From contig JBEPVF010000007.1 of assembly GCA_041691135.1 (NCBI GenBank), positions 1 through 64,000 of the forward strand: a stretch of 64,000 bases of DNA, written 5' to 3'. The stretch comes from Candidatus Peribacteria bacterium. Lineage in GTDB: Bacteria; Patescibacteriota; Gracilibacteria; Peribacterales; Peribacteraceae. Made by a program: the position numbers and the translations under genes. This document shows, piece by piece, positions 6,580 through 59,808 of this stretch. Every line of letters starts with the position of its first letter. The first letter of the stretch is position 1. The notes under the pieces were generated by a model. The model was not told the DNA's origin and did not search any database. It worked only from the letters and a program-made list of their open reading frames with translations.

Positions 6580-6622
6580 AAAACCCCCCGGCGCGTCTAG
6601 ATCGACTGCGTCGGGGGTAAAA
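6580..6622 (-). terminator. Intrinsic terminator of the 6680-6973 cassette
   Basis: Minus strand CCCCCGACGC...GCGCCGGGGGG followed by TTTT. Confidence 0.65.
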
Positions 6623-6679
6623 GATTGATCGCCAGAGTGGCGTCGCTTTTTTGGCTACGAGGCTTCATGCCCTAATTCC

Positions 6680-6973
6680 TCAGTGAGGTCGGAAGGGATG
6701 GGGGAAGAAGCCGTGCGGCCCACGTGGAACGTGATGGCCGTAAAACATCACCCACGGTCTCACAGGGTGTGCGAATGGGGAGACGAAGCTTGGGACGACC
6801 CATCCGGGGTCGCCTGGCCGCATCTCGATGATGATCTGGTCGTGGGAGTGATCCTTCACTCCATTTAAGAACGGGCCCGTTCCCGGGGGGATGATGTAGC
6901 CAGGAACCGAAAGCAACGCTTTCAGCTCCAGGCTTTCCAGCTTGGGCTTGAAGTTCCGCATGTCGCGTTTCAT
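6680..6973 (-). CDS. Small Pro/His-rich protein with LEPR-XLL / Planc_extracel-like N-terminal motif
   Basis: MKRDMRNFKPKLESLELKALLS; GGAG SD upstream; own promoter and terminator. Confidence 0.7.
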   Translation of the reverse strand: MKRDMRNFKPKLESLELKALLSVPGYIIPPGTGPFLNGVKDHSHDQIIIEMRPGDPGWVVPSFVSPFAHPVRPWVMFYGHHVPRGPHGFFPHPFRPH

Positions 6974-7074
6974 TGCAATGCTCCGAAGGTAAGCGACGCT
7001 TTCAACGATCAGTCTAGAGGCGCGGTGCCTCCGCATTAGTTGATCGTCGACTAGGAGGCGACGCTCTATTGGTC

Positions 7075-7102
7075 ATGCTAAATCTTCTGGGCAAATTGTC
7101 AA
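7075..7102 (-). promoter_or_regulatory. Sigma70-type promoter for the 6680-6973 cassette
   Basis: Minus strand TTGACA-16 nt-TAGCAT. Confidence 0.6.
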
Positions 7103-7167
7103 CAATATTTGACATACAAATATTCTCTCTTAAAGCATCATTTTGAGCGAAAGGGTACAATCAGCTC

Positions 7168-7611
7168 ATGTTGATTCAAATTCTCTACGCCTCCACCAGC
7201 GGCCACACCGAATATGTGGTCGAGCAGTTGGCCAAATTCCTGCAGGAAAAGAAGATTGGTGCCGAAGTACTGCGGGCCGAAAAGGCACAGCCGGAAGATC
7301 TCTTGAAGGGAGACGTGCTGGTTCTTGCGACGAGCACTTGGAATACAGGAAACACCGAGGGTCAACTTAATCCTCACATGTACCATTACCTGCTTGATAT
7401 TGCCAAAGATGTTGAACTGAAAGGCAAGAAGATTGCGGTGATCGGTTTGGGTGATGAGCGGTATCACTACACCTGCCGGGCGGCGGATCACATGGAAAAA
7501 TTTGTCGAGGCGCATGGCGGCGAACTGGTGCAGCCAACATTGCGCATCGTCAATGAGCCATACGGACAAGAAGCGATGATACGCACGTGGGGTGAAGGCT
7601 TACTCAAATGA
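7168..7611 (+). CDS. Flavodoxin
   Basis: ILYASTSGHTE, TSTW..G, GLGDERY. Confidence 0.92.
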   Translation: MLIQILYASTSGHTEYVVEQLAKFLQEKKIGAEVLRAEKAQPEDLLKGDVLVLATSTWNTGNTEGQLNPHMYHYLLDIAKDVELKGKKIAVIGLGDERYHYTCRAADHMEKFVEAHGGELVQPTLRIVNEPYGQEAMIRTWGEGLLK

Positions 7612-7662
7612 AGGAAGAAATCCGCTATACTCTCGACGAGCATCTACTTCTCAATTCCGTCC

Positions 7663-9510: not shown

Positions 9511-9514
9511 TTCT

Positions 9515-10402: not shown

Positions 10403-10407
10403 AGAGG

Positions 10408-11819: not shown

Positions 11820-11821
11820 TC

Positions 11822-18427: not shown

Positions 18428-18831
18428 CAGCAGCAGCCGTCCCCGGCTGCGGTGTCTGAACTATTCTCCTACACGAACAGTATCAGTCACCACTGGTGTT
18501 CTTTTTCTTGTCTCCCCGCGACAAGAAAAAGAACCAAAAAGAAGCGCACCGCCTATGACCCACCTCATGTCGATGGAGCGCCTATGGCTTGCTCCATCGA
18601 CATTCGTACCCACTCATCCCCACCACATAGGCGGAGGGGGTCATTGTCTGGAATAGCGAGCAGGCGAAGAGGTTGGGCGGCCTCTAGCCGCCTGGGAGTA
18701 GTGGAGACAGCTTCATTAAACAGTACACAAATACATCTCCCTCTCCCGGCAGGTTTCTGATGTTCCATGACGAACAGACGCTCACTACTTCCTTTGCGGT
18801 ATGGGAAGGAGGGAGAGGGCCGGGGTGAGGG
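18428..18831. repeat. Structured modular repeat R1, copy 2
   Basis: Same conserved blocks as copy 1; variable stem ATGTCGATGGAGC/GCTCCATCGACAT. Confidence 0.9.
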
Positions 18832-22968: not shown

Positions 22969-22971
22969 GGT

Positions 22972-23157
22972 CACCCCATCCGCGCTGCGGGGCACCTTCC
23001 CCGGCCCTCCCATACGCCAACACGGGGAAGGGCGAGAGAACAAAACAGAAACATTCCCTTCCCCGTGAAAGCCTCTGAAGATGTGTCATTTAGAAAAAAA
23101 GTCTGATTTTCTCAGAACAAGAATGGAGGAGGCGGGGGAAGGGCTAGGGATGGGGTG
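22972..23157. mobile_element. MITE/REP-like element R2, copy 1
   Basis: Terminal inverted repeat CACCCCATCC/GGATGGGGTG; near-identical reverse-complement copy at 33996-34183. Confidence 0.75.
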
Positions 23158-31881: not shown

Positions 31882-31971
31882 AACGTGTAATGACCAAATT
31901 CCAAGCCTCAATCAGCATGTTATTGGTAATTGAATTTTGGTGATTGGGATTTTAGCATCCGTTTTTATCTA

Positions 31972-32214
31972 TTGACTAGAGATCCGTGCTAAGTTAATGT
32001 AATTATGTAACGGTACAAAGGTACAAATGACTATCCTCCTTTCACCCGTCGGCTTTTGGCGGCAGGGAACTCCCAAGCGGGGCTCTCTGAGGATCGTCTG
32101 ATAGACAATTCAGGTCAGTAGGGAGCTCTGCTTCTTGTCGAAGCGGGGCATTTGGGTGGTTCCACAGGGAATTCGCTCGGCTGCTGATCTGTGAAAACAT
32201 CGGAGGACGTAGAC
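31972..32214 (+). promoter_or_regulatory. Promoter and long structured 5' leader of the HPVTG/HWKFDP operon
   Basis: TTGACT-17-TAATGT; alternative pairings; 24-codon uORF at 32027-32101; GGAGG SD. Confidence 0.55.
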
Positions 32215-32853
32215 GTGACTAACCAATTCTTGATTTTGACAGGCTTCTCGCCGTACAAGTTCCATCCTGTTACCGGTTGCGAGCTTGACGCTCTTGTCCT
32301 ACTGGACCCCATCTATGGCGTGTTCGGTCAACCTGGAGACCCTCTGGATCCGATCATCTTTTTTGATGAAAAGGACGAACCGGATATCAGGCACTGGAAG
32401 TTCGATCCTCGCACGCGACACCCGTGGAAGCATCCGGAACTCCGCTCGGATTGGCCCAAGTTTCCCAGTTGCTACAGTGCGGAGCAGTTGGATCGCGGCC
32501 AGGCGATGATCATTCATCCAATCACGGCAGTACTGTTGAATCTGTTGCCTCGGTGTTACAGGTGTATCAATGACTACTCTGATCAGGAGATGAGAGTCGC
32601 GGAGCAGTTTCCCAACTTCCATGCACCAAGTTCTTTTCCTTGGGACCTCGACTACTGCGAAGAATCCATGCAGTTCGTCGAACACGAACATGGAGGGGGC
32701 AGGCAAAGAAAGCGTTACCACGGGCGCATTGGAACGGGATTCAATATGTACGAGCTGGTCAGTTCGTACCCGTACCACTGGCTTTACGATCCGTTCACAG
32801 GCAGATACCTTCAAGAAGAGGAGGTCGAAGGTGACAAGCATCAAGCTGGTTGA
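32215..32853 (+). CDS. Hypothetical protein with two HPVTG/HWKFDP domains
   Basis: FHPVTG…HWKFDPRT and HPITA…HWLYDPFTG; GGAGG SD before GTG. Confidence 0.8.
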   Translation: MTNQFLILTGFSPYKFHPVTGCELDALVLLDPIYGVFGQPGDPLDPIIFFDEKDEPDIRHWKFDPRTRHPWKHPELRSDWPKFPSCYSAEQLDRGQAMIIHPITAVLLNLLPRCYRCINDYSDQEMRVAEQFPNFHAPSSFPWDLDYCEESMQFVEHEHGGGRQRKRYHGRIGTGFNMYELVSSYPYHWLYDPFTGRYLQEEEVEGDKHQAG

Positions 32854-33199
32854 ACACGGTATCTTCCCGCGAGCATATCGCTCGTTCCAGCTCGACTGGG
32901 GCTTGGATATGCTCCGGCATCCGGTGACGGGTGATGTGCTGTCTCGTCAGATGCCGTACGATCACGATAAGCATGTTTGCTACATCCGTATCCTCCATAC
33001 TCGTGGGGGATGGAAAGCGCCGACCGTCTCTTACCGATTCCTCCCACGAATCGGCTTGGGTCAGGACGTCTCTAAAGGCGATCTCTTCCCGGCACACTGG
33101 AAGTTCGATCCCTACGAGCAGGAAAGTACGGTGGCGGCAGTGTCGACAGTTATTGTGACCACGACTGCTGTGCCGATGGGTGGTTGGGCGATGGACTGA
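32831..33199 (+). CDS. Hypothetical protein with an HPVTG/HWKFDP domain
   Basis: HPVTG…FPAHWKFDPY; GAGGAGG SD before GTG. Confidence 0.8.
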   Translation: MTSIKLVEHGIFPRAYRSFQLDWGLDMLRHPVTGDVLSRQMPYDHDKHVCYIRILHTRGGWKAPTVSYRFLPRIGLGQDVSKGDLFPAHWKFDPYEQESTVAAVSTVIVTTTAVPMGGWAMD

Positions 33200-33215
33200 G
33201 AAAGGAGAATCCGCA

Positions 33216-33515
33216 ATGCAACGAGTCTTCACAGACTGGTATAGGCCTCGTCAGATGATCCAGGGAATCGGGCTTACTTTCCATCCCATCGTGGGCTTGG
33301 AACTTAAGGACCTGGTCTATCATGCCATGGACGGTCGTTTGTCTCTTCGGAATCCAGGGAACTGGCTCATGAAGCAGGGCCTCTCTCCCTCAGCGTGCGA
33401 AGTCATCGAGGAAATCTACTTTCCATGCATCACCGACGGAAGGGATGACTACACTGTGGGCAGCCCATACCCGCAGCACTGGAAGTTCGATCCCTTCACA
33501 GGTGAACCTTTGTGA
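33216..33515 (+). CDS. Hypothetical protein with an HPVTG/HWKFDP domain
   Basis: HPIVG…YPQHWKFDPFTGEPL; AAGGAG SD. Confidence 0.8.
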   Translation: MQRVFTDWYRPRQMIQGIGLTFHPIVGLELKDLVYHAMDGRLSLRNPGNWLMKQGLSPSACEVIEEIYFPCITDGRDDYTVGSPYPQHWKFDPFTGEPL

Positions 33516-33523
33516 GGAGAACA

Positions 33524-33835
33524 ATGCACAGACGACGTTTTCGTGTCCCCTATCGTGCTGCCGAGCTCAATGCCGGCGTCACCATGGCGTACCACCCGGT
33601 GACCGGGCGCAAGCTCCGGTCACTCAGCTACTGCGATCGATGCTGTTGTTACTACTTCATCGAGCGTGAGTATGAGCCCGGCCTTTCGATTTTCGGTCTT
33701 GATGCGACGGTTACCGAAACGAAAGTATATCTGCCGATGATTAGTGTCGGCCAAGGCGTCGATGCCGATGAGCTCTACCCGGCTCACTGGAAGTTTGATC
33801 CGTTCCTCGGAGCATTGATCAATGACTCCGTGTGA
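33524..33835 (+). CDS. Hypothetical protein with an HPVTG/HWKFDP domain
   Basis: HPVTG…YPAHWKFDPFLG; GAGGAG SD. Confidence 0.8.
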   Translation: MHRRRFRVPYRAAELNAGVTMAYHPVTGRKLRSLSYCDRCCCYYFIEREYEPGLSIFGLDATVTETKVYLPMISVGQGVDADELYPAHWKFDPFLGALINDSV

Positions 33836-33861
33836 ATCCTCCGATAACCCTTCAGTAGCCT

Positions 33862-33899
33862 ACCCCTCCCATTGTCCATTCGGACCGGGAGGGGTTTTT
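33862..33899 (+). terminator. Intrinsic terminator
   Basis: ACCCCTCCC…GGGAGGGGT plus T-tract. Confidence 0.8.
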
Positions 33900-33995
33900 A
33901 TTGTGCATGCATACAGTAATTCTGTTTTAGCATTTGGGGCGCTGCTGCTTTCTGCGCGGTGGGTAGCCAGAAGCATATTCAGCATGAGTTTTGCC

Positions 33996-34183
33996 GTACC
34001 CCATCCCTAGCCCTTCCCCCGCCTCCTCCATTCTTGTTCTGAGAAAATCAGACTTTTTTTCTAAATGACACATCTTCAGAGGCTTTCACGGGGAAGGGAA
34101 TGTTTCTGTTTTGTTCTCTCGCCCTTCCCCGTGTTGGCGTATGGGAGGGCCGGGGAAGGTGCCCCGCAGGGCAGATGGGGTAC
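33996..34183. mobile_element. MITE/REP-like element R2, copy 2 (inverted)
   Basis: TIR GTACCCCATC/GATGGGGTAC; reverse complement of 22972-23157. Confidence 0.75.
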
Positions 34184-34328
34184 ACAAGCTGACGATGAAT
34201 CGGATACCCAGGAACTCACCGCACAGAAAGCGACAGCGCCAATCTGAAAATTCAGAAGAGCACACGGCTATCAATCATGATAAAAAAGGACGGCGTTTAC
34301 CGTCCTGATTCACTACAGTGGTTTTGCC

Positions 34329-35741
34329 TTATACGTCGTAGTAGCGGAAGAATTCACTCGGGCTCGGACGCTTGCGCTCATCGGCCACTTCATCGCGTTT
34401 CACGTCGATGAAGTCGCGCAGATAGTCTTCGGTAAACACACCTGACGACAGCAGGAACTCATGATCCTTGTCGAGCGCATCCAGGGCTTTATCGAGCGTC
34501 TCTGGTGCATGTGGAATTTTGGTGAGCTTCTTCGGATCCATGTGATACAGATTCTCATCAGTGGGAGCGCCCGGGTCGATCTTGTTCTTGATGCCGTCCA
34601 GACCGGCTAACAGCATGGCCGAGAAGGCGACATATGGGTTGCAGGCGGGGTCTGGCGAGCGGAACTCTACGCGCTTGGCTTTGGGGCTTTGCGAATACAT
34701 CGGGATGCGGAAAGCAGCACTGCGATTGCGGGCCGAGTAGATGAAGTTCACCGGCGCTTCGAATCCGGGCACCAGACGCTTGTAGCTGTTGGTGGTGGGG
34801 TTACAGATGGCGCACAGCGCCTGAGCGTGTTTGAGGATGCCGCCCATGTAATGCAAAGCCATCTTGGACAGACCGGCGTACTCATTGCCGGCGAAGAGGG
34901 GTTTGCCTGCCTTCCATAGACTCATATGCGTATGCATACCGGAGCCGTTGTCGCCGTAGATCGGCTTGGGCATAAAGGTGACGGTCTTGCCATAGCGCTG
35001 GGCCACGTTGCGGACGATGTACTTGTAGCGCGTCAGCTTGTCGGCCATGCGGAACATCTCGTCGTACTTCATATCAATCTCGGCCTGACCGCCGGTAGCG
35101 ACTTCGTGGTGGAACGTCTCGATCTCGATGCCGGCCTTTTCCAATTCCATCACCATGGCGGCTCGTACATCTTGATGCTTGTCGGCGGGCGAAGCAGGGA
35201 AGTAGCCTTCTTTGTGACGGATCTTGTAGCCCAAGTTTCCACCCTCGCAATCGTCCTCGCCGCAGTTCCATGTCGCTTCCTCGCTGTCCACGCGGTAGTG
35301 CGCATCCCCAATACCGGCGTTGTAGCTCACATGGTCGAAAATGAAGAACTCGGCTTCGGGCCCGTAGTACGCCTTATCGGCCAAACCGGTTTTCTTCAGG
35401 TAGTCTATGGCCTTGCGGGCGATGGAGCGCGGGCTGCGGGCGTAGAGTTTATTGGTGATCGGTTCGTGTACGTCGCACAGGAGCGAGAGCGTCGGTTCTT
35501 CGGTGAACGGATCGATCATGGCGGTGGCTAAGTCAGGGATCAGGAGCATGTCCGATTCCTGGATCTGCTGGAAGCCCCGGATACTGGAACCGTCGAATCC
35601 GGCGCCGCCGTCCAGCACATCTTCGAGCTGGTGGATGGGTTTGCTCGTGTGATGGAGCGTGCCGGGTACATCGACAAAAGTGAGATCCAGGACGGTGCAC
35701 TTATTCTTCTTGGCGAAGGCGATGAGGTCTTTGCTGTTCAT
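34329..35741 (-). CDS. glnA: Glutamine synthetase type I
   Basis: [44 protein letters not shown]. Confidence 0.98.
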
Positions 35742-35973
35742 ACAATTGGAGAGAAGTAATGAAGTAAATACACATCTCTTTTCGCTTTTTTCGGCATTAT
35801 TTTCAAGAGCACGGCGTTAAACTTTTTTGTTTTGTTCATTTTATTTACAACGAAGTGAAAGCATCACTTTTTGCCTTTGATAAGATCAAAATTAGATATC
35901 ACGGCTGATGCATGTTTCGGATGGTTTCTTTTTCGTTGTTCAAAACAATAACGACTTGCTACACTCTTGAAGT

Positions 35974-36735
35974 ATGGCCACAGACCTCCACTATGTTCTC
36001 CGTTCAGTCGGGTTCGACGAAAAAGAAACGCAGCTCTATTTGGCAGGCTTACAGCTCGGTCCGGCGCCCGCATCGGACTATGCCAAAGCAGCGACACTCA
36101 ATCGTATCACTGCATACAACACGCTTGAGTCCCTAGCGCAGCGCGGGTACTTCACGATTCTCAAAAAAGCACGGGGCAAATGCTACGCCCCGGTGTCGCC
36201 GGAATATCTGGCATTGGAGGCGCGCAAGAACGTGGCGGCGCTCGATCGGGCACTGCCGGAACTGCGATCGATGCAGGGAGTGAAATACCGTCGTCCCAAT
36301 GTGCGGTTTTTTGAAGGATGGGAGGGGATGCGGCATGTGTACGAAGACACACTGAGCGCCAAATCAGAAGTACTGAACTTTGCAAACTCGGCGGTAGTAC
36401 GTACTTTCTGGCCGCAATACGATGACGAATATGTAGCCGAACGCGTAAAGCGCGGCATTCGTCTGCGTGGCATTTGTCCCAACGATACGATCGGCCGTCA
36501 GGTGCATGGCGAGGACAAACAACATCTGCGCGAGATCCGCTTGGTCCCGGCCAGTGAGTTCGATTTCACCAACGAGATCAACATTTACGATCACAAAGTG
36601 GCGATCTGTTCGTTCGCATCCGGACCGCGTGGCGACAGCGATATGTTCGGCGTCATCATCGAAAGCAAAGAAGTCGCCGAAACGCAGCGGCAAATTTTTG
36701 AAATGGCGTGGCGGTATGCAGGGAGGAAGAAGTAA
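35974..36735 (+). CDS. TrmB-like transcriptional regulator
   Basis: GFDEKETQLY wHTH, VRFFEG.EG, EINIYDHKV, QRQIFEMAW (type common in CPR). Confidence 0.85.
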   Translation: MATDLHYVLRSVGFDEKETQLYLAGLQLGPAPASDYAKAATLNRITAYNTLESLAQRGYFTILKKARGKCYAPVSPEYLALEARKNVAALDRALPELRSMQGVKYRRPNVRFFEGWEGMRHVYEDTLSAKSEVLNFANSAVVRTFWPQYDDEYVAERVKRGIRLRGICPNDTIGRQVHGEDKQHLREIRLVPASEFDFTNEINIYDHKVAICSFASGPRGDSDMFGVIIESKEVAETQRQIFEMAWRYAGRKK

Positions 36736-36747
36736 CTTTTCCTCGCC

Positions 36748-37114
36748 CAGCAGCAGCCGTCCCCGGCTGCGGTGTCTGATTGTTAATCAAACACATTCTT
36801 CACACGCAGAGCGCCGTAACTCGGCGCGGTGCTGAGGTGTTTGCCTGCACAAAATTTTTTCAATCGCTCAGGGTGTTCTTTTTCTTGTCTCCCCGCGACA
36901 AGAAAAAGAACCAAAAAGAAGCGCATCCGACTTCGCCTGCGGGCTACGCCGGACAGGCCGCCTCTATGACCCACCTCACTTCCTTGTCGCGCCTAACGGT
37001 TTGCGACAAGGAAGTTCGTACCCACCTATCCCCACCACATAGGCGGAGGGACTGTTCCCTGGAATAGCGAACGTGCGAAGAGGTTAGGCGGCCTTTAGCC
37101 GCCTGGGTGTAGTG
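36748..37114. repeat. Structured modular repeat R1, copy 3 (with nested insertion)
   Basis: Same blocks; variable stem ACTTCCTTGTCGC/GCGACAAGGAAGT; extra TCCGACTTCGCCTGCGGGCTACGCCGGACAGG. Confidence 0.9.
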
Positions 37115-37206
37115 AAGGGGGTCCTCGGATTCATCGGCGCCCTCGGCACCGTCGGATTCCTCATTAACAAACCCTCTTCCACTCTGCTACCATCCCCTGA
37201 AAAACC

Positions 37207-38487
37207 ATGCCCCCCCGACGCACGAGTGGTTCATCGGCTTCAGTGTCTCGTCTTCAAGATGAGCTTTCCTTTACGAAGCCGGCGCCGGGACCACGCAAGA
37301 GCAGGGCGATGCCCTTACTTTTTCTGGTGGTAGGCGTGATGGGACTCACTTTTTTCGCTTCGCCGGCAACGCAGGGTGCCGTGCGCGGATGGGTGGGTGG
37401 TGAACAGGCGAAGACGGATCAGACGATTGATACCAGCAAGTTTCTGGCATCATTTTTACATTTCAAAAACCGTACGGCCGACGAAGGGCCGGTCATCACT
37501 GATCCGCCGGTCAATCCGTATAACAAACGCGGCGTGTATCTGGCGGCCAGCAGCGTGGCGAATCCGGTTTTCTATGATCAGACGATCAAGAACCTACTCG
37601 ACAGTGGTGGTTCCTCCTTTGTCTTCGACGTGAAGGGGCCGTTCGTATACTTCGAGAGCGACGCGGCGATTGCCAAGGAGCTCAAGCTCTCGTTGCCGCT
37701 CTACGATTTACCGGCAGTGATTAAGAAAGCGCACGACAAAGGCCTGTATACGATCGCGCGTTTTATCGCGCTCAAAGACCCGCTTTTTTCTCAGCGGGTA
37801 CCGGAAGTGCAAATTCGCAATCCCAAGACGGGCCACAGTTTGGGTGATGTGTGGGTCGATGGAATAGCGCCGATCACGCTTGAATTTAACAGGCAGATTC
37901 TGAAGAGCCTGCTCCAATCTGACGTCGACGAAGTGAACTTCGACTACATCCGCTATCCGAGCGAGTACGCACAGTCATCCATCAATCTTACTGGCGACGA
38001 GAAGGCCGATCACGTCGAGGCGTTTCTCAAAATGGCCAAGGAAACGCGTGATGAAGTGAACCCCCACACCAAGCTCGGCATCAGTACATACGCAATTCTG
38101 GGCTGGTCGTTCAAGATCAATAAAGAGGCGATCGGTCAGGACTTCATCCGCTTCGCGCCGCTCGTGGACGTGATTTCGCCGATGGCGTATCCGCAAACAT
38201 TCTCGGAGAATGCATACTACTACCCGGGTCGCGATCCAGGCAGCCGCGATTACTATTTGGTCTACCGCACGCTCACCGGCTACCGCGACCTGCTGCCACC
38301 CGAACACCGCAACAAGATTCGCCCGTGGATCCAGGGATACTACACCACCGTGCAGGACATGAAGGACCAGATGCAGGCTGTCTACGATGCCGGCTACTGC
38401 GGATTCCAGGTGTGGAATGCGAATAATCACTACGATGTTACATATCCGGCGATCAAGGCCATGAAGGTGCCGGCAGAGTGCCAATAG
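37207..38487 (+). CDS. Putative glycoside hydrolase (DUF4015 family), membrane-anchored
   Basis: RGVYL, FDVKG, YTIARF…KD, DEVNFDYIRYP, SPMAYP, RPWIQ, WNANN.Y. Confidence 0.85.
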   Translation: MPPRRTSGSSASVSRLQDELSFTKPAPGPRKSRAMPLLFLVVGVMGLTFFASPATQGAVRGWVGGEQAKTDQTIDTSKFLASFLHFKNRTADEGPVITDPPVNPYNKRGVYLAASSVANPVFYDQTIKNLLDSGGSSFVFDVKGPFVYFESDAAIAKELKLSLPLYDLPAVIKKAHDKGLYTIARFIALKDPLFSQRVPEVQIRNPKTGHSLGDVWVDGIAPITLEFNRQILKSLLQSDVDEVNFDYIRYPSEYAQSSINLTGDEKADHVEAFLKMAKETRDEVNPHTKLGISTYAILGWSFKINKEAIGQDFIRFAPLVDVISPMAYPQTFSENAYYYPGRDPGSRDYYLVYRTLTGYRDLLPPEHRNKIRPWIQGYYTTVQDMKDQMQAVYDAGYCGFQVWNANNHYDVTYPAIKAMKVPAECQ

Positions 38488-38572
38488 TTCGCGTAATTAT
38501 TGACTTATTATCATTTTTGTTTAAAAATACGTTTAGTGGTCATTGAATTCAGTGTCTAGAGGAGAGAAAAGG

Positions 38573-38836
38573 ATGTCGGATGTCCAATTGGTTCTCGTTC
38601 TGTGTGTTGTGGCGAGTACAGGGATGTATTTTCTCAACAGACATCGGGCGAAAAAGTATCCTTCGGGCTCAGAACTCCGAGCAAAGCTGCGAAAAGCGCG
38701 ACACTCCAGTGAGGCAAACTTGCTCAAGTATGAGCGTGCCGTTAAGGCCCCAGAAAGAGCGAGCTTGGCAATGAAGTTTGCGATCGGCTTTCTCATGATT
38801 CTTGCACTGACTTACGTTCGAAGCGTGCTCCCATGA
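38573..38836 (+). CDS. Small two-TM hypothetical protein
   Basis: GAGGAG SD, TTGACT upstream, palindromic terminator downstream. Confidence 0.65.
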   Translation: MSDVQLVLVLCVVASTGMYFLNRHRAKKYPSGSELRAKLRKARHSSEANLLKYERAVKAPERASLAMKFAIGFLMILALTYVRSVLP

Positions 38837-38857
38837 TGCTCGCCGATGACTGCACGC

Positions 38858-38881
38858 GGGGGCGACGTCGCCCCCTTCTTT
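38858..38881 (+). terminator. Terminator-like palindrome
   Basis: GGGGGCGACGTCGCCCCC followed by TTCTTT. Confidence 0.6.
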
Positions 38882-38918
38882 ATCGATTTTTGTCGCGTGT
38901 TCCGTGTATCATAGTCGC

Positions 38919-39764
38919 ATGCGCCAGTACCTCGATCTCCTCCAAACCGTTCTCGACAAGGGCCAGAAGAAAGACGATCGAACCGGTACGGGGACACTGA
39001 GTATGTTTGGCTATCAGATGCGGTTTCATTTAAATGACGGATTTCCGCTGCTGACGACTAAAAAGCTCCACACACGTTCGATTTTCCACGAACTGCTCTG
39101 GTTTTTGAAAGGCGAGACAAAGATCAATTACCTGCGCGAGAATGGTGTGACGATTTGGGATGAGTGGGCGACGGCCGAGAAGACGGGAAAGTTCGAACGG
39201 TCGGAAGGAGACTTGGGTCCTGTCTACGGTCATCAGTGGCGCAATTTCGGAGCGACGCTCAAGCCTGATGGATCGTACGAACAGGATGGCGTCGATCAAG
39301 TTAGTCGATTGATTGAGGGACTGAAGAAGAACCCGAGCAGCCGTCGGCACATCATCTCGGGCTGGAATCCGAAGGAAGCGGATCAGGTGGAGCTGCCGCC
39401 GTGCCACACGTTGTTTCAATTCTATGTATCAGCGGATAAGAAGCTGAGCTGTCAGCTGTACCAGCGCAGCGCCGATATCTTCCTGGGCGTGCCGTTCAAC
39501 ATCGCCTCGTACGCGCTGCTCACACATATGATCGCGCAGGTGTGCGACTACGGCGTCGGGGACTTCGTACATACACTGGGTGACGCACATCTGTATTTGA
39601 ATCATCTCGATCAGGCGAAGGAACAGCTCAGTCGTGGAGCACGGCCTTTGCCTCAACTGAAATTGAACCCGGCAGTGAAGGATATTTTTGACTTCAAGTT
39701 CGAGGATATTGAGATCATTGGCTACGACCCGCATCCGAGTATCAAGGCACCAATTGCCGTTTAG
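38919..39764 (+). CDS. thyA: Thymidylate synthase
   Basis: [39 protein letters not shown]. Confidence 0.98.
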
Positions 39765-39831
39765 TAGACAAAAATTTACTTTGTTAGTAGCGTAACTCTG
39801 TCTTCCCACTTGGTCCTTTTGGAGAAAGCAC

Positions 39832-40059
39832 GTGAGAAATCCTTTGTTCAAGGCGGTGTTTACGCTGATCTTTGCACTCGCCCTCCTGGGCGATGCTGGA
39901 TCGGTGACCGCCCAAATGATCATTGTGGCGCTTCTGTGCACCATCTATGGATTGATGGCGCTTGCTCTAGTTCTAACGGTTCTTATGAGGCCCCTCGATC
40001 GCCTAGTCGACCTCGTACAGGACTGTCGGTACGGAGATTACCGTTACTGGCCTCGGTGA
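39832..40059 (+). CDS. Small two-TM hypothetical protein
   Basis: GGAG SD before GTG; TAGACA-17-TAGCGT promoter; own terminator. Confidence 0.6.
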   Translation: MRNPLFKAVFTLIFALALLGDAGSVTAQMIIVALLCTIYGLMALALVLTVLMRPLDRLVDLVQDCRYGDYRYWPR

Positions 40060-40074
40060 GTCCGAAGACGTCCG

Positions 40075-40109
40075 TCCCTGTCGTCGCGCGAGCGGCGACA
40101 GGGATTTTT
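40075..40109 (+). terminator. Intrinsic terminator
   Basis: TCCCTGTCGTCGC-GCGA-GCGGCGACAGGGA-TTTTT. Confidence 0.8.
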
Positions 40110-40135
40110 CTCAGGAGGTGTGGCAAGATGGAGAC

Positions 40136-40642
40136 GTGATCCTCTCGTTGGTGTTAGCGGCATCGGAAAACAACGTGATTGGCGACAGCCAGGCAGCGAA
40201 CCATGCTATTCCGTGGCATCTGCCGAACGACTTCAAACATTTTCGTGATCTCACCAAGGGTAAGCCGGTGATCGTGGGACGCAAGACGATGGAGAAGATT
40301 GGACGATTACTTCCAGGGCGGCGAAACATCGTGATCACCCGCGGCGATGCAGTGCCGTTCGAAGGAGCGGAGCGCGCAGGTTCATTAGAGGAGGCAATCG
40401 AGTTGGCCAAGCAGGGGAACCCCGAAGAGATCTGTGTGATTGGTGGCGGCGAAATTTACCGTCAGGCGCTGTCGATTGCGGATCGGGTGTATCTGACACG
40501 GGTGCATGCGACAGTGGAGGGTGATACGACTTTTCCGGGGTTAGATGATGCGTGGAAGGAAGTTTCTCGCGAAATGCATAGTGCCGATGAGGAGCACAAG
40601 TATGCGTATACGTTTTTGGTGTTCGAAAAAAGAGAAAAGTAG
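40136..40642 (+). CDS. folA: Dihydrofolate reductase
   Basis: NNVIG, IPWHLPNDF, GRKT, LPGRRN, IGGGEIY, GDTTFP. Confidence 0.96.
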   Translation: MILSLVLAASENNVIGDSQAANHAIPWHLPNDFKHFRDLTKGKPVIVGRKTMEKIGRLLPGRRNIVITRGDAVPFEGAERAGSLEEAIELAKQGNPEEICVIGGGEIYRQALSIADRVYLTRVHATVEGDTTFPGLDDAWKEVSREMHSADEEHKYAYTFLVFEKREK

Positions 40643-40911
40643 AGCGCCGTCTCTCGGCGCGGCTCTGAGGTCTTGGCCTGCACAAACTTTTCCAATCGCT
40701 CAGGGTGTTCTTTTTCTTGTCTCCCCGCGACAAGAAAAAGAACCAAAAAGAAGCGCACCGCCTATGACCCACCTCGCCCTGCTGTCGCGCCTGTGGGCTG
40801 GCGACAGCAGGGCTTGTAACCACTCATCCCCACCACATAGTCGGAGGGGTGTTTGCCTGGAATACCGAACGTGCGAAGAAGTTAGGCGGCTGTAGCCGCC
40901 TGGGAGTAGTG
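40642..40911. repeat. Structured modular repeat R1, copy 4
   Basis: Same blocks; stem GCCCTGCTGTCGC/GCGACAGCAGGGC. Confidence 0.9.
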
Positions 40912-40963
40912 AATGGGTCCTCGGATTCCTCGGCGCCGTCGGTTCCCTCGGGTTTCTCCTACT

Positions 40964-53882: not shown

Positions 53883-53926
53883 AAAACGCCGGCGTCTCCT
53901 CTTGCGAGGGTGGGCCGGCGTTTTTT
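53883..53926. terminator. Bidirectional intrinsic terminator
   Basis: AAAACGCCGGC…GCCGGCGTTTTTT. Confidence 0.75.
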
Positions 53927-54011
53927 CCGAAACAATGTCTCGGAAGTGTGCGCACCGAAGTGCACGAGGTAGCTCTTTGGCATCCGTGTTCACTCCACGT
54001 TCCATTGAAGA

Positions 54012-54587
54012 TCAGGGTTCGTCAGCCTTTTTCTGGCTGATAAGACGGCGCACTCGCTCAGCGAGGAGGGCGCCGTCGAATGGCTTCTTGAACGCGTCGT
54101 TGAATCCGAAGCCGTACAGTTCCTCGCTCGGCTCGTTGCTGGTGAGGGCGACGATGATCGTGGTCTGGTAGGCCTCATTCTTACGCAAGTTCTGTGCGAT
54201 CTGGCCGGCTTCGATCCGGCCGATCGTCAGGTCGATCACGATGCAGTCAGGATGGAAACTCTCGGCACGAACGCCAGCCTCAAAACCCGAGGTGGCCGTC
54301 TCGATCCGGAAGTCGTCGGTTTCCCGAAATTGCTCGCGGAGACTGGCCAGCAGGGGCGCGTCGGCCCCCACGACTAGAATCTTGCCGTAAGCCGCCGTTT
54401 CGAAATTCCCGAGTGGCATTCCATGCTCCTTGAGAAATTGAAGCAAATTCTGTCGAGGAATTCGGCGATCCTGCGACCCGGGGATGCGATACCCGCGCAA
54501 GCGGCCTGAGTCGAACCACTTGCTGACGGTACGTGGCGCGACCTTACAGATCGCGGCCACCTGCCCGGTTGTAAACACTTTTTTCAT
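54012..54587 (-). CDS. Excisionase-like HTH plus receiver-domain regulator (Planctomycetota-type)
   Basis: VFTTGQVAAICKVAPRTVSKWFDSGRLRGYRIPGSQDRRIP; SGFEAG…FHPD…IDL; KKPFD; strong AAGGAGGT SD. Confidence 0.9.
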   Translation of the reverse strand: MKKVFTTGQVAAICKVAPRTVSKWFDSGRLRGYRIPGSQDRRIPRQNLLQFLKEHGMPLGNFETAAYGKILVVGADAPLLASLREQFRETDDFRIETATSGFEAGVRAESFHPDCIVIDLTIGRIEAGQIAQNLRKNEAYQTTIIVALTSNEPSEELYGFGFNDAFKKPFDGALLAERVRRLISQKKADEP

Positions 54588-54813
54588 GGTGTTTACAACC
54601 TCCTTTCTTTGGAAAGAAAAGGAATTGTCCTCCCGCCTAGGGCCAACACGAAAGAACCCGTGATGCGGAAAGAGCTGAAAGTACTGAATTGGTTTTGAGA
54701 GAGTGCGTCAATAATCTCATACGCTCATCACTGTAACAGCGCTGTAGCATTCACAAGAAGGCTGGTGAATGATGTGAATGTCCGTAGACTGATTTCACTC
54801 CTTCTCCTTCATC

Positions 54814-56191: not shown

Positions 56192-56350
56192 ATGACGCCC
56201 GGACAGCGGAGGCAATTGACGAGCGAACTCAGCGCGCTCATTCGGTCGGATTGCTGCGACGAAAAATGCGTGGCGGGCAAACTACACGACAACGGCGAGC
56301 AATATTGCAGCAAGTGCAAGGAGCCGTGCTGCTGGAGGACGGCAAAGTGA
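56192..56350 (+). CDS. Small Cys-rich protein (start uncertain; may extend to 56141 or further upstream)
   Basis: SDCC…YCSKCKEPC zinc-ribbon-like. Confidence 0.55.
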   Translation: MTPGQRRQLTSELSALIRSDCCDEKCVAGKLHDNGEQYCSKCKEPCCWRTAK

Positions 56351-56428
56351 GAATGACCAGAAAATCCGTCACCTGTTTGTCGGTGCGTCGGGCGCCCAGT
56401 ACAATTTTACGTATTCTTCCCATTACGT

Positions 56429-56821: not shown

Positions 56822-56835
56822 TATATCGGTCGCTG

Positions 56836-57594: not shown

Positions 57595-57687
57595 TGGCGG
57601 CTGATGACGAGAGAAGGATGATCGTCATCACGTATCGTATCTTCTGCCTTTCCGTGCGTCACTGGAAGTCGTTGGACAGAGAGCCCA

Positions 57688-58266
57688 CTACCATACGAAT
57701 GGAATGAGGGCCTTCGTCCGTGCTTTGTATGCCGGGTAGGCATCGGGGAAATGCTGCGTCAGAAGTTTCTCTTCATCTTTTGCTTTGAGCGAAAAGCCGA
57801 TGGCCACGAATACGAGAACAAGAAAAAAGCTCGCTGAGCCATACCAAATTGCTTCGCCCAGAAACAGGAGCAGCAGACCGGAGTAGATGGGATGACGGAC
57901 AACGGCATACGGACCGCGTTGAATAAGTTCATGGTCCTGTTTGAATGTGACAGAGGCGCTCCAATTGCTGCCCAGTATCACGCGCGACCAGAGCATCAGC
58001 AGCAGACCACACCCGGCGATGATATCGGCGATGATGCCGACTGTGAGCGAGTAGGGCCAAAGTCTGAGATTCGTAAACGAGAAGAAATGGCCCAGGATCA
58101 GCACGGCAAAAATGGCAATACACATGCGAAACAAAATCTGCTTACTCGACCGACTTACTTCCACCGTTTGCTTTACCGAAAATGAAGCGATGATCCAGAA
58201 AATGAGGAAGACCGCCCAGCAGCCGAGAATGAATTGGCCGGTGGAGACACTGGTGATGGGAGGCAT
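57688..58266 (-). CDS. Isoprenylcysteine carboxyl methyltransferase family membrane protein
   Basis: LGSNWS, GPYAVVRHPIYSG, EEKLL…F..Y..Y. Confidence 0.92.
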   Translation of the reverse strand: MPPITSVSTGQFILGCWAVFLIFWIIASFSVKQTVEVSRSSKQILFRMCIAIFAVLILGHFFSFTNLRLWPYSLTVGIIADIIAGCGLLLMLWSRVILGSNWSASVTFKQDHELIQRGPYAVVRHPIYSGLLLLFLGEAIWYGSASFFLVLVFVAIGFSLKAKDEEKLLTQHFPDAYPAYKARTKALIPFVW

Positions 58267-58360
58267 GACTCTATTGTACGTCTGGAAAGATGTGAGTCAG
58301 CGGAATTGCCGAGAAAATGGCTATTATGCATTCTTACCGTCTTAACCTATACTTATTCCT

Positions 58361-58858
58361 ATGAATGTTGAGACGATCATTATCCGGCGCAGCCCTGTGA
58401 TGGCGATTTTTCGATTGGTTGTGGTGCTCGTCGTGCTTTCTCTCATCTTTGCTGCCGCTTTTTCATTCATCGGAAATGACACTACCGATAGCAGACAACT
58501 GCAGATGTTGCATGTGCAACTGCTTGCCATCTATTCCATCCTTTCCATTCTGTTGGCGATTGTCATTCTATGGCAATGGGCGTTTGAATGGTTTGAAGTA
58601 CGCGAGGGATTAATGGTGCATCACAAAGGGATCATCTTTCGCCGCACAACCGGGACATCGCTCCAGCATTTGGAGGAAATCAGCGTACGCGAAGGACTCT
58701 TTGGTCGAATTCTCAAGTATGGCACTCTTGTATTGCACAATCCGATGCTTAAGCAGCAGGTTACATTGCATGATGTGCTGGATCCGCTTGTGCAAGCACG
58801 AGCGCTCAGAAGCGCGATTGGTAAACAGGGAGAGAGAATTGTGCCTTTGGCACAGTAG
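58361..58858 (+). CDS. Membrane protein with a bacterial PH (bPH_2) domain
   Basis: Two TM helices then KGIIFRR…GLFGRILKYGTL. Confidence 0.8.
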   Translation: MNVETIIIRRSPVMAIFRLVVVLVVLSLIFAAAFSFIGNDTTDSRQLQMLHVQLLAIYSILSILLAIVILWQWAFEWFEVREGLMVHHKGIIFRRTTGTSLQHLEEISVREGLFGRILKYGTLVLHNPMLKQQVTLHDVLDPLVQARALRSAIGKQGERIVPLAQ

Positions 58859-58924
58859 ACAGGAATCAGTAAAAATTGGGGCAAAAAATTGCAAACTATG
58901 CAGCACTGTAATGCGCACTAAAAC

Positions 58925-58954
58925 AAAAAAGGCCCGATGGATATTCCATCGGGC
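58925..58954 (-). terminator. Intrinsic terminator
   Basis: GCCCGATGGA-TAT-TCCATCGGGC with T-tract on the minus strand. Confidence 0.75.
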
Positions 58955-58986
58955 GGCCTCGTTCTCGTTGGCTGTCCAAACTCCTT

Positions 58987-59505
58987 TTAGCAGGTGAAGT
59001 TGGCAACCAGGAATTGTCCGTATGCGCATGTTTCCGGCCCCAGCCAGCCACGCTTTCTGGTGAGCTGTGCGAAGTACTGCTGCACAGCAGAGGACTTGCC
59101 GCTGAGGCTGAATATCAGTCCGCTGCCACGCACATGGTTTGCGTGGATAGACAGTGGAAGCTGACGGTAGACGGACATCTCGGTCACGTCGGTTTTGAGG
59201 AAGAGGTAGAGCCCGTCATTTTCCATGTGACGGGGGCCGTGGAAGTAGGCCATTTCCTGGCTTGCTTCCTCTCTCACTCGATTGTCTTGTGGACCAAAAC
59301 CTCTGGCGGTCCAATACAAGTCGAAGTACCGACTGAGGAAGGCAATCCGTTGCCTTCGGGATTCCTCTTTTAGCAGTTGTTTGACTTCATTGCTTGTTCC
59401 GTCAGTGCTCGACGGAATAATGAGCGCCACCTCCGTATCTGTGCGCTCTTTATTACGACGAGCAAGGATTTGCTGCAACGTGACGTTCTTGCCTTTGCCC
59501 CACAC
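58987..59505 (-). CDS. Hypothetical protein (start uncertain)
   Basis: ~172-aa ORF, GAGG before GTG, own terminator. Confidence 0.6.
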   Translation of the reverse strand: MWGKGKNVTLQQILARRNKERTDTEVALIIPSSTDGTSNEVKQLLKEESRRQRIAFLSRYFDLYWTARGFGPQDNRVREEASQEMAYFHGPRHMENDGLYLFLKTDVTEMSVYRQLPLSIHANHVRGSGLIFSLSGKSSAVQQYFAQLTRKRGWLGPETCAYGQFLVANFTC

Positions 59506-59808
59506 GGGTTTTGCCCTCAAAACTAACAAACGACGAGAAAAAGAACGAGCCCCCCTAGGGGGTATCGGACTCTACCAATAGGAAACAAGAGAAGCCATTA
59601 AATTGATGCATCTTAGTGGCAGCCCAAAGGCTCGTGATAACAAACTCTGTGCTTTGGGAGGTGATCGATTGGTACAAAGTCCTGAATGTCTTATTGAAGC
59701 CAGAAACGGAATTCGTGATCTGAGAGAAGGACTTGAATATCCGAAAACTATCGGGCGTCAACAGACACTTCTTCGTTTTTTTACGGAAGAAGCGATAGAC
59801 TGGCGTTT

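What the first reader, a model, noticed from the sequence alone, without database searches (positions are those of the whole stretch)
6580..59580. A second gene class: self-contained SD-led mini-cassettes in a leaderless genome
Seen: six units (6680-6973, 32215-33835, 38573-38836, 39832-40059, 54012-54587, 58987-59505) each have a 5' leader (often structured), an SD (GGAG, GAGG or AAGGAGGT) and their own terminator hairpin; several also have a clear -35/-10 promoter. They sit between housekeeping genes, two of them flanking thyA. All encode unknown or Planctomycetota-like proteins. Inference: either a separately regulated programme, recent imports, or (speculatively) transcripts formatted for an SD-using host ribosome, i.e. 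candidate host-directed effectors of an epibiont.
Basis: inference. Interest (0 to 1): 0.8.

Follow-up and report, generated by a model that had tools for sequence, protein, structure and literature searches.

The report
Few SD-led genes, leaderless CPR genome
In a small bacterial genome that starts most proteins without the usual ribosome-docking signal, a handful of small, mostly species-specific genes still carry that signal, but they are a mixed bag of accessory genes read by the cell's own ribosomes, not a special programme aimed at a host.

Summary
The background claim holds. In 1102 typical genes on core contigs, SD 5-mers at -16..-4 are at control level (19 vs 18 and 21), a -10 box sits just before the start in 273 (control 70), and the 16S anti-SD core reads UUUCC, as in sister genera.

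The six units are real ORFs with strong terminators. Only U2 (four paralogous cistrons), U3 and U5 have SDs beyond chance. U1, U4 and U6 have 4-mers.

Genome-wide the class is tiny: 18 small ORFs with a 6-mer SD against 6-8 at control spacings. SD-rich typical genes lie on high-GC contigs that look mis-binned.

The units are heterogeneous:
- U5 is an HTH_17-REC regulator.
- U2 is a rare unnamed family.
- U1 is a conserved cassette in two of four sister species.
- U3 and U4 are insertions beside thyA.
- U6 is an ORFan.

Housekeeping folA carries the strongest SD in the window. This argues that the cell's own ribosomes read these signals.

Best reading: leadered accessory genes using a residual, wobble-weakened SD pathway. 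The host-effector idea has no support.

The parts
6580..7102 (-). U1 cassette. Promoter TTGACA 7102-7097 / TAGCAT 7080-7075. About 95-nt leader that folds as a long stem. GGAG 6984-6981. ORF ATG 6973 to stop 6680 (97 aa). Terminator hairpin 6617-6584 plus TTTT 6583-6580.
   Evidence: Positional homologs in G004 and G001 keep the same promoter-to-start distance (129-131 nt) and carry stronger SDs (AAAGGAGG, GGGAGGTG). N-terminal protein similarity, pairwise E 2e-5.
31972..33900 (+). U2 operon. TTGACT 31972-31977 / TAATGT 31995-32000. About 207-nt structured leader. Four paralogous cistrons: A GTG 32215-32853 (two domains), B GTG 32831-33199, C ATG 33216-33515, D ATG 33524-33835. SDs: GGAGG 32202-06, GAGGAGGT 32818-25, AAGGAG 33202-07, GAGGAG 33514-19. 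Terminator 33862-33900.
   Evidence: Family alignment A2 has invariant HP and HW.FDP columns. AF2 model pLDDT 92.
38500..38885 (+). U3. TTGACT 38500-05 / AAAAAT 38523-28. GAGGAGAG 38559-66. ATG 38573 to 38836 (87 aa, two hydrophobic segments read by eye). Terminator stem 38858-38875.
   Evidence: Absent from 40 relatives and from the syntenic spacers. Self-hit only in the 5.8-billion-protein search.
39821..40110 (+). U4. GGAGA 39821-25. GTG 39832 to 40059 (75 aa, two hydrophobic segments read by eye). Terminator 40074-40105 plus T-run.
   Evidence: Absent from 40 relatives and from the syntenic spacers. The SD is at chance level.
40113..40642 (+). folA (DHFR) with AGGAGGTG 40113-40120. A three-codon ORF runs from ATG 40128 to TGA 40139, and its stop overlaps the folA start GTG 40136.
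   Evidence: -10.8 kcal/mol with the organism's own tail, the strongest in the window; DHFR_1; N-terminus agrees with relatives.
53883..54605 (-). U5. AAGGAGGT 54605-54598. ATG 54587 to 54012 (191 aa, HTH_17 + REC). Perfect 12-bp inverted repeat 54600-54589 / 54578-54567 with the ATG in its loop. Terminator hairpin 53920-53887 plus TTTT, shared with the convergent rlmH-like gene.
58932..59562 (-). U6. Upstream hairpin plus T-run 59562-59550. GAGG 59518-15. GTG 59505 to 58987 (172 aa ORFan). Terminator 58954-58932.
   Evidence: Coding score is positive (+13.3). The SD is at chance level.

Best explanation
The window belongs to a small CPR-type genome, probably Peribacteria-like. Its ribosomes start most genes without an SD. 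Starts are either leaderless, from a -10 box 6-8 nt before the start codon, or follow short C/U-rich leaders. Its 16S anti-SD core has decayed from CCUCC to UUUCC.

The six units are unrelated accessory genes in variable intergenic slots, mostly species-specific or fast-evolving. Each is its own transcription unit, closed by a strong terminator.

Their mRNAs carry leaders of about 40-200 nt, some strongly folded, so they cannot use the leaderless route. The units with real SDs are U2 (all four cistrons), U3, U5 and the U1 orthologs in sister species. The re-initiation ORF in front of folA belongs with them. All recruit the cell's own 30S subunit through a residual SD pairing. Extended purine tracts of GGAGA/GGAGG type still form 6-8 pairs with the variant tail, using G.U wobble opposite the two changed bases.

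U4 and U6 have no credible SD, and U1 is weak in this species. They form no functional class.

Shown: the sequence signals, the genome-wide statistics, the 16S variant and its spread among relatives, and the insertions relative to sister genomes.

Inferred: that these SDs act in initiation, that they act on the cell's own ribosome, and that leader length is the reason they are kept.
For: 1. Core contigs, 1102 typical genes:
- SD 5-mers at -16..-4: 19, against 18 and 21 in control windows.
- SD 4-mers: 43, against 61.
- TANNNT at -15..-5: 273, against 70.
The upstream window also pairs less well with the anti-SD than a control window (mean -0.91 vs -1.77 kcal/mol).

2. The 16S 3' end reads ...CAUUUCCUUA. 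G003, G018 and (as CGUUUCC) G019 carry the same UUUCC core. G008 and G009 have UCUCC. G005 has CCUCC. The downstream spacer changes in step, AGGGAG to AGGGAA. The 16S contig C9 shows the leaderless signal and carries the same dispersed repeat as the window's contig.

3. U2B, U2C, U2D, U3 and U5 lie in the top 0.7% of pairing energies for the organism's own tail. The folA upstream SD is -10.8.

4. The U1 cassette is conserved in G004 and G001, with SDs AAAGGAGG and GGGAGGTG at 5-6 nt.

5. In G000, folA has only about 25 nt between the U4 terminator and its start. In sister species the thyA-folA spacer lacks U4.

6. Small atypical ORFs on core contigs, repeats masked: a 6-mer SD before the first start in 18 of 708, against 6, 8 and 8 at shifted windows. 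GGAGA scores 17 against 9, 9 and 6.
Against: - There is no expression or ribosome data. No RNA run holds the locus.
- The energy-based count for small ORFs shows no excess: 14 against 11, 20 and 12.
- Typical genes with flexible starts show none either: 49 against 54 and 66.
- Starts of small ORFs come from my own caller, and some ORFs may not be genes. U1-U4 have zero or negative coding scores.
- GGAAA, the perfect complement of the variant anti-SD, is not enriched. Adaptation of SDs to the variant tail is therefore unproven.
- The organism's identity rests on one named relative and on the lack of a uL30 hit.
- 127 operon-internal genes manage without an SD (4/127 carry a 5-mer). A leader or an internal position alone does not force SD use.
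Confidence: 0.6

Rival explanations
1. Recent horizontal imports from SD-using donors. The SDs, promoters and terminators are unameliorated donor signals and have no particular role in this host.
For: - U2, U3 and U4 are absent from syntenic sites in the same genus.
- U5 is patchy: a full-length match in 1 of 40 relatives. Its nearest Atlas clusters are mostly Planctomycetota.
- U1-U4 have atypical coding scores.
- The U2 homolog in another Peribacteria MAG is also a stand-alone unit with GGAG and a terminator.
Against: - The U1 cassette keeps an SD in three species of the genus.
- The folA SD serves a native gene.
- Atypical ORFs of 200 aa or more have an SD 5-mer at their first start in 0 of 81, yet carry the leaderless -10 signal in 20, against 9 in the control window. 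Imports here evidently adopt the host mode.
- No integrase, target-site duplication or repeat flanks U3 or U4.
- U6 has native-like coding statistics.
Confidence: 0.2
2. No class at all. The reader picked intergenic ORFs that happened to have purine-rich motifs and hairpins, so the pattern is selection bias plus chance.
For: - U1, U4 and U6 have only 4-mers, at background frequency.
- An SD-by-terminator association in small ORFs is absent by the energy measure (6/57 vs 50/720, p 0.29).
- Two non-SD small ORFs are as genus-specific as three SD-led ones.
Against: - Four consecutive U2 cistrons each carry an SD of 5 nt or more at 4-8 nt. The per-gene background is 1.7% (19/1102).
- A 6-mer SD before the first start occurs in 18 small ORFs, against 6-8 in controls.
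- 6-mer SD ORFs carry terminators in 6/32, against 41/676 (Fisher p 0.015).
Confidence: 0.15
3. Some units (U1, U3, U4) are not protein genes. They are small RNA genes or regulatory leaders whose ORFs are incidental.
For: - Coding scores are zero or negative.
- The terminators are strong.
- The U1 leader fold and its promoter-to-start distance are conserved.
- U3 and U4 have no homolog anywhere searched.
Against: - The U1 N-terminus is conserved at protein level, with 24 invariant columns across three species.
- U3 and U4 each encode two clear hydrophobic segments (read by eye).
- Rfam gives no match in the window.
- The acs-like gene downstream of U1 has its own leaderless promoter.
Confidence: 0.1
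4. Host-directed transcripts: mRNAs formatted with SDs so that an SD-using host ribosome translates them.
For: Only the contrast between SD-led units and an SD-poor genome with a degenerate anti-SD.
Against: - The strongest SD serves folA.
- U5 is an intracellular DNA-binding regulator.
- The variant tail still pairs with these SDs at -7 to -11 kcal/mol.
- No mechanism for exporting mRNA to a host was found or searched for here.
- The units share no common feature beyond small size.
Confidence: 0.01

Closest known systems
Prokaryotes with mixed initiation modes: mostly leaderless or SD-less mRNAs plus a minority with SD (for example Haloferax volcanii, PMC3986360; search listing and abstract only)
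   Same: The majority of genes are leaderless or lack an SD, and a minority of leadered genes carry SD-like motifs.
   Different: Here the anti-SD itself has changed (UUUCC). The SD-led minority is about 1% of genes, and apart from folA, U5 and the U1 cassette it consists of small ORFs of unknown function.
Bacteroidetes-type SD-independent translation with a sequestered anti-SD (PMC7797042; search listing and abstract only)
   Same: Genome-wide lack of SDs.
   Different: Per that abstract, Bacteroidetes keep the canonical anti-SD sequence and hide it. This lineage has mutated two of the five core bases. No Pfam S21 match above the cut-off was found here (20.5 bits vs 27).
CPR lineages lacking the anti-SD motif (Parcubacteria subgroup; Tsurumaki et al., RNA 2022, PMC9297842; passages read)
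   Same: A CPR bacterium with a non-canonical 16S 3' end. uL30 was not found, as that paper reports for CPR.
   Different: In the passages I read, that paper reports the loss for Parcubacteria, not Peregrinibacteria/Peribacteria. Its supplements, which I could not open, may cover this. Here the change is a stepwise C-to-U decay within one family, and wobble pairing remains possible.
Surveys of 16S 3' ends and variant anti-SDs (Amin et al. 2018, PMC6107228; Lim et al. 2012, PMC3457768; search listing and abstracts only)
   Same: Rare natural variation of the anti-SD.
   Different: I did not check whether this lineage or this variant is listed there.

Membership tests
Shine-Dalgarno-led genes | A purine-rich motif complementary to the organism's own 16S 3' tail | tested here: met
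   Met for U2B, U2C, U2D, U3, U5 and the folA upstream ORF (-7.3 to -10.8 kcal/mol; 0.7% of 1087 core genes reach -7). Marginal for U2A, U4 and U6 (-5.0 to -5.8). Not met for U1 (-3.8).
Shine-Dalgarno-led genes | Spacing of about 4-10 nt between the motif and the start codon | tested here: met
   U2A 8, U2B 5, U2C 8, U2D 4, U3 8, U4 7, U1 7, U6 9. U5 is 10-11, at the long end.
Shine-Dalgarno-led genes | Motif enriched at that position over background in the genome | tested here: inconclusive
   None in 1102 typical core genes (19 vs 18 and 21). A modest excess in 708 small atypical ORFs (18 vs 6, 8, 8 for 6-mers) but none by energy (14 vs 11, 20, 12).
Shine-Dalgarno-led genes | The SD contributes to initiation | not testable with these tools
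   Needs reporter or Ribo-seq data. No RNA run was listed.
Leaderless genes (the background class) | A -10 box ending 6-8 nt before the start codon, with no 5' UTR | tested here: met
   TANNNT starts at -12 in 16%, at -14 in 10% and at -13 in 4% of 506 forced-start genes, against 1-3% elsewhere. Contig C7: 23/60. thyA has TATCAT + 6 nt + ATG. The acs-like gene has TATACT + 8 nt + ATG. TSSs were not mapped.
Intrinsic (rho-independent) terminators | A G+C-rich hairpin directly followed by a T-run downstream of the stop | tested here: met
   6 of 6 units, at -18.8 to -29.6 kcal/mol.
Horizontally acquired island or cassette | Absent from syntenic sites of close relatives | tested here: met
   Met for U2, U3 and U4. 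Not met for U1, which has positional homologs in G004 and G001. U5 and U6 lie where synteny breaks or DNA matches stop.
Horizontally acquired island or cassette | Mobility hallmarks: integrase, target-site duplication or flanking repeats | tested here: not met
   The only repeats around U3 and U4 are a 13-nt direct pair, an internal palindrome and the terminator arms. None flanks a unit. No integrase was seen among the flanking genes scanned.
Two-component response regulator (U5) | A receiver domain plus an output domain, both above Pfam cut-offs | tested here: met
   Response_reg 42.4 bits (cut-off 30.2). HTH_17 39 bits (cut-off 27).
Two-component response regulator (U5) | Conserved phospho-acceptor Asp and a partner kinase | not tested
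   An Asp in the ...CIVIDL... stretch is visible by eye. No alignment-based check was made and no kinase was searched for.
Secreted or host-directed effectors | An export signal, a secretion-system association, or evidence of transfer to a host | not tested
   No tool here predicts signal peptides. Nothing in the loci suggests a secretion system (one search covers the flanking genes only).

The most novel reading that the evidence does not exclude
In this Peribacteria-like family the anti-SD has decayed stepwise (CCUCC, then UCUCC, then UUUCC). A weakened, G.U-dependent SD channel has been kept on purpose for about 10-15 leadered genes, with GGAGA-type SDs partly re-tuned to the new tail. This would give the cell a separately throttled translation channel for lineage-specific small proteins and for regulators such as U5. 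Structured leaders (U1, U2) and a start-codon hairpin (U5) would act as switches on that channel.
Probability: 0.15. Interest if true: 0.6.

Novelty: new member of a known kind. Interest (0 to 1): 0.35.

Why it matters
It gives a concrete natural case for asking what happens to SD-led genes when the anti-SD decays. One family holds a graded series of 16S tails: CCUCC, UCUCC, UUUCC. In the same genome, typical genes avoid SDs, while a few leadered genes, including a native folA, keep strong ones.

This makes the co-evolution of SD and anti-SD directly testable by comparing genomes of one family.

It also corrects the more exciting reading. Nothing here points to host-directed mRNAs. The apparent SD-rich 'core' genes elsewhere in the assembly lie on contigs that probably belong to another organism. 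That matters for anyone using this bin.

Tried and rejected
- Rfam at gathering thresholds: 0 matches in the window. tRNA scan: 0 genes.
- RNA evidence: no RNA holder listed for 31900-40200. One DNA run holds it and may be the source sample. Read laying was not run, because a DNA source cannot show expression.
- Fold of the U2 family: no Foldseek PDB match at E <= 0.001, and no VIA-align match at Z >= 2 among 48,161 chains. The function stays unknown.
- U3 against U4: no similarity. No flanking repeats.
- U1 protein against 5 relatives with HMMER at E <= 1: nothing. Homology appeared only after I fetched the syntenic spacers. Negative searches for such small proteins are therefore weak.
- My first terminator rule was too loose, scoring 29-44% of all genes, and was dropped.
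- Energy-based SD counts for typical genes with flexible starts showed no excess.
- Repeat copies inflated the early small-ORF counts. These were recounted with repeats masked.
- Papers: 0 papers hold both 'anti-Shine-Dalgarno' and 'Patescibacteria'. 0 hold both 'Peribacteria' and 'ribosome binding site'. Of the 3 papers holding 'leaderless', 'Candidate Phyla Radiation' and 'Shine-Dalgarno', I opened two, and they use the terms only in reference lists or a figure legend. The third I did not open.
- Supplements of PMC9297842 could not be opened. They may list anti-SD status for Peregrinibacteria.
Full report
WHAT THE GENOME IS

The window is contig C7 (bases 1-64000) of a 1.74-Mb, 35-contig assembly. 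It is 92% complete with 3.8% contamination. Its relatives have genomes of 0.7-1.9 Mb, and several carry 16S genes with insertions.

No uL30 match was found. The only S21 match is below the Pfam cut-off, 20.5 against 27 bits. A multi-S1-domain ORF is present.

The only named relative that any search returned is an 'uncultured Candidatus Peribacteria' MAG. I therefore treat the organism as a Peribacteria-like CPR bacterium. This is an inference, not a verified placement.

THE BACKGROUND CLAIM HOLDS

No gene caller was available, so I trained a periodic Markov model on the genome's long ORFs.

In 506 genes whose first in-frame start is also the best-scoring one:
- TANNNT begins at -12 in 16%, at -14 in 10% and at -13 in 4%. 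At every other position before -10 it is 0-3%; the further values in the row (3% at -6 and -4, 4% at -1) lie too close to the start to be a -10 box.
- GGAG and GAGG never exceed 1% at any upstream position.
- G is depleted upstream.

On contigs with GC below 0.555 there are 1102 typical genes:
- SD 5-mers at -16..-4 occur in 19, against 18 and 21 in shifted windows.
- SD 4-mers occur in 43, against 61.
- TANNNT at -15..-5 occurs in 273, against 70.
- CTCC or CCTC occurs in 211, against 103.

The region upstream of starts pairs less well with the anti-SD than a control window does (mean -0.91 vs -1.77 kcal/mol).

In the window itself, thyA has TATCAT, six bases, then ATG. The acs-like gene has TATACT, eight bases, then ATG at 6525. 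My caller had placed that start wrongly at 6576.

THE ANTI-SD

The single 16S gene lies on C9. After helix 45 it ends ...GGAACAUUUCCUUA, so the CCUCC core reads UUUCC.

This is not a sequencing error or a stray contig:
- G003 (same genus) and G018 have the same tail, and G019 has the same UUUCC core (CGUUUCC).
- G008 and G009 have UCUCC, and G005 has CCUCC.
- In these f1 tails the downstream spacer changes in step with the core (AGGGAG beside CCUCC and UCUCC, AGGGAA beside UUUCC).
- Of the twelve other-family tails listed, seven keep CCUCC; the rest vary (CCUCU, CCGCC, CCACC).
- C9 shows the leaderless signal and shares a dispersed repeat family with C7.

The variant tail can still pair with long purine tracts through two G.U pairs.

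SD-led 'typical' genes do exist elsewhere in the assembly. They are concentrated on eleven high-GC contigs: C6, C15, C20, C22, C24, C26, C27, C29, C32, C34 and C35.
- SD 5-mers occur in 29 of 125 genes there, against 4 and 2 in control windows.
- TANNNT occurs in 11, against 5.
- A 20-kb piece of C6 has one ~120-nt DNA match in 2 of 4 same-genus genomes. Window segments give dozens of matches.
- The dispersed repeat has copies on 14 core contigs and none on these eleven.

These contigs probably come from another organism.

THE SIX UNITS, ONE BY ONE

U1 (6973-6680, minus strand)
- It has the best promoter match in the window, TTGACA-16-TAGCAT.
- Its ~95-nt leader folds at -31.7 kcal/mol.
- It has only GGAG as an SD (-3.8 kcal/mol).
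- Its terminator is -22.6 kcal/mol.
- HMMER found no homolog in five relatives.
- I then fetched the syntenic spacers of G004 and G001. Both hold the same architecture: TTGACA, 131 nt to the start, a long leader stem (-58 and -55 kcal/mol), a small ORF with a matching N-terminus, and a terminator. The pairwise E is 2e-5, with 24 invariant columns across the three species.
- Their SDs are stronger: AAAGGAGG and GGGAGGTG.
- U1 is therefore an old, fast-evolving cassette of the genus, not an import.

U2 (32215-33835)
- It is an operon of four paralogous cistrons, five domain copies in all, sharing HP(V/I)TG and HWKFDP motifs.
- Each cistron has an SD of 5 nt or more at 4-8 nt.
- The ~207-nt leader folds at -82.8 kcal/mol (z -3.4; 0 of 200 shuffles fold as well). 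In the predicted fold a UCCUCC stretch pairs with the first SD.
- The family has 24 other members among 5.8 billion proteins. None is named and none has a Pfam family.
- It was found in 1 of 40 relatives and in 1 locus among the GTDB representatives. There it is also a stand-alone unit with GGAG and a terminator.
- An AlphaFold model is confident (pLDDT 92). It matches nothing solved.
- The region has no DNA match in four same-genus genomes. G001 holds a 473-aa ORF in that slot.

U3 (38573-38836) and U4 (39832-40059)
- Each encodes a small protein with two hydrophobic segments (read by eye). The two are unrelated.
- Neither was found in 40 relatives.
- G001, G003 and G004 keep DUF4015-thyA-folA with spacers of about 100-150 nt, which leaves no room for either.
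- U3 has GAGGAGAG at 8 nt (-7.7). U4 has GGAGA at 7 nt (-5.0, within the 5% tail).

U5 (54587-54012, minus strand)
- It is an HTH_17 + receiver-domain protein.
- It carries AAGGAGGT 10 nt before the ATG (-8.3).
- A perfect 12-bp inverted repeat puts the ATG in its loop.
- A full-length ortholog was found in 1 of 40 relatives (G010, 51% identity). That ortholog also has a leader of about 55 nt and the motif AGGAAAT six bases before its ATG. This is a single observation.
- The nearest Atlas clusters share the architecture and are mostly Planctomycetota. This is a lead, not proof of transfer.

U6 (59505-58987, minus strand)
- It has native-like coding statistics (+13.3).
- It has only GAGG at 9 nt.
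- It matches nothing but itself among 1.84 billion representatives with full HMMER, and nothing in 40 relatives.
- It lies in a stretch (55.6-64 kb) that mostly lacks DNA matches in the genus, together with non-SD genes.

THE TELLING COUNTER-EXAMPLE: folA

The strongest SD in the window is AGGAGGTG at 40113-40120. It pairs at -10.8 kcal/mol with the organism's own tail.

It does not serve an orphan gene. It serves a three-codon ORF (ATG 40128 to TGA 40139) whose stop overlaps the GTG start of folA.

Only about 25 nt separate the U4 terminator from folA, and they contain no -10 box. In this species folA therefore cannot be leaderless, and it appears to depend on SD-led initiation followed by re-initiation. 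That last step is inferred.

A housekeeping enzyme that depends on an SD argues that the cell's own ribosomes read such signals.

IS THERE A GENOME-WIDE CLASS?

- Typical genes: none, even when alternative starts are allowed (49 vs 54 and 66 at -7 kcal/mol or better).
- Small atypical ORFs on core contigs, repeats masked, n = 708. A 6-mer SD before the first start occurs in 18, against 6, 8 and 8 at shifted windows. GGAGA occurs in 17, against 9, 9 and 6. By energy there is no excess (14 vs 11, 20, 12).
- 6-mer SD ORFs have a strong terminator in 6 of 32, against 41 of 676 (p 0.015).
- Units of the same look elsewhere are C1:4510-5177 (two ORFs), C8:42512-42937 and C8:56630-56914.
- Pfam: 0 of 10 such ORFs elsewhere have a family. 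Among 10 random non-SD small ORFs, 3 do.
- Genus conservation: 0 of 4 genomes for three SD-led ORFs, and also 0 of 4 for two non-SD controls.
- ORFs of 200 aa or more with atypical composition have an SD 5-mer at their first start in 0 of 81, yet carry the leaderless -10 signal (20 vs 9).

So about 10-15 SD-led small ORFs exist, under 1% of genes. Beyond being small and unannotated, they show no demonstrable functional or taxonomic bias.

MECHANISM I COMMIT TO

These are ordinary accessory transcription units. They carry leaders, so they cannot use the leaderless route. The ones with real SDs use a residual SD pairing with the cell's own variant 16S tail, weakened by wobble. Strong terminators insulate the neighbouring leaderless genes.

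Confidence is 0.6. The rivals are unameliorated imports (0.2), chance plus selection bias (0.15), and non-coding units for U1, U3 and U4 (0.1). These overlap in part. Host-directed mRNAs rate about 0.01.

WHAT IS KNOWN

- SD-poor and leaderless-rich prokaryotes are well described (PMC3986360 and PMC7797042; abstracts only).
- Loss of the anti-SD motif has been reported for a Parcubacteria subgroup of CPR (PMC9297842, passages read).
- I found no paper that links Peribacteria to this. The searches were made, and supplements were closed.

The finding is a new member of a known kind. Its most useful piece is the graded anti-SD series within one family.

Noticed in passing
window 1-196, 18495-18703, 36820-37162, 40650-40960: A dispersed repeat family of about 250-300 nt. 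It has at least 30 copies (73-94% identity) on core contigs, often at contig ends. Copies also occur in same-genus genomes. None lies on the high-GC contigs. It could be a MITE-like element or a small-RNA family.
   Followed up: partly
window 34100-34185 and 22973-23054: A second short repeat of about 85 nt with at least 12 copies in the genome. It shows 90-95% identity to pieces in G001 and G004. It sits between the U2 terminator and the glnA terminator.
   Followed up: partly
window 54567-54600: A perfect 12+12 inverted repeat with a 10-nt loop that holds the U5 start codon. It overlaps the 3' end of the SD. It is either an RNA hairpin limiting translation or an operator for U5's own HTH domain. 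The G010 ortholog lacks it.
   Followed up: partly
window 32008-32230: The U2 leader is unusually stable (-82.8 kcal/mol, z -3.4). A UCCUCC stretch at 32034-32039 is predicted to pair with the first SD. This is a candidate cis-regulatory RNA with no Rfam match.
   Followed up: partly
window 40113-40139: A three-codon ORF (ATG 40128, TGA 40139) behind AGGAGGTG, with its stop overlapping the folA start GTG 40136. It looks like termination-reinitiation coupling created when U4 was inserted.
   Followed up: partly
genome contigs C6, C15, C20, C22, C24, C26, C27, C29, C32, C34, C35: High-GC contigs whose genes use SDs (29/125) and lack the leaderless signal. C6 has almost no DNA match in the genus. 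They are probably mis-binned from another organism.
   Followed up: partly
upstream of core gene starts, genome-wide: C/U-rich words that resemble the anti-SD (CTCC or CCTC) are enriched just before start codons: 211 vs 103 of 1102. Position -1 is C in 44% of genes. The meaning is unknown.
   Followed up: no
L001 and loci L006, L010, L011, L013, L014, L021: In family f1 the spacer just after the 16S 3' end covaries with the anti-SD (CUCCUUACCAGGGAG vs UUCCUUACCAGGGAA). This suggests a pre-rRNA hairpin that pairs with the anti-SD.
   Followed up: no
L046 (G010) about 2060-2150, minus strand: The U5 ortholog has a near-consensus TTGACA/TATAAT promoter, a leader of about 55 nt, and AGGAAAT six bases before its ATG. 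That motif is fully complementary to a UUUCC-type tail. No 16S was found in that assembly.
   Followed up: no
window 6525-6539: The acs-like gene (ADP-forming acetyl-CoA synthetase domains) starts at ATG 6525 with TATACT eight bases upstream. It does not start at GTG 6576, which the longest ORF suggests. G001 and G004 have the same arrangement.
   Followed up: yes
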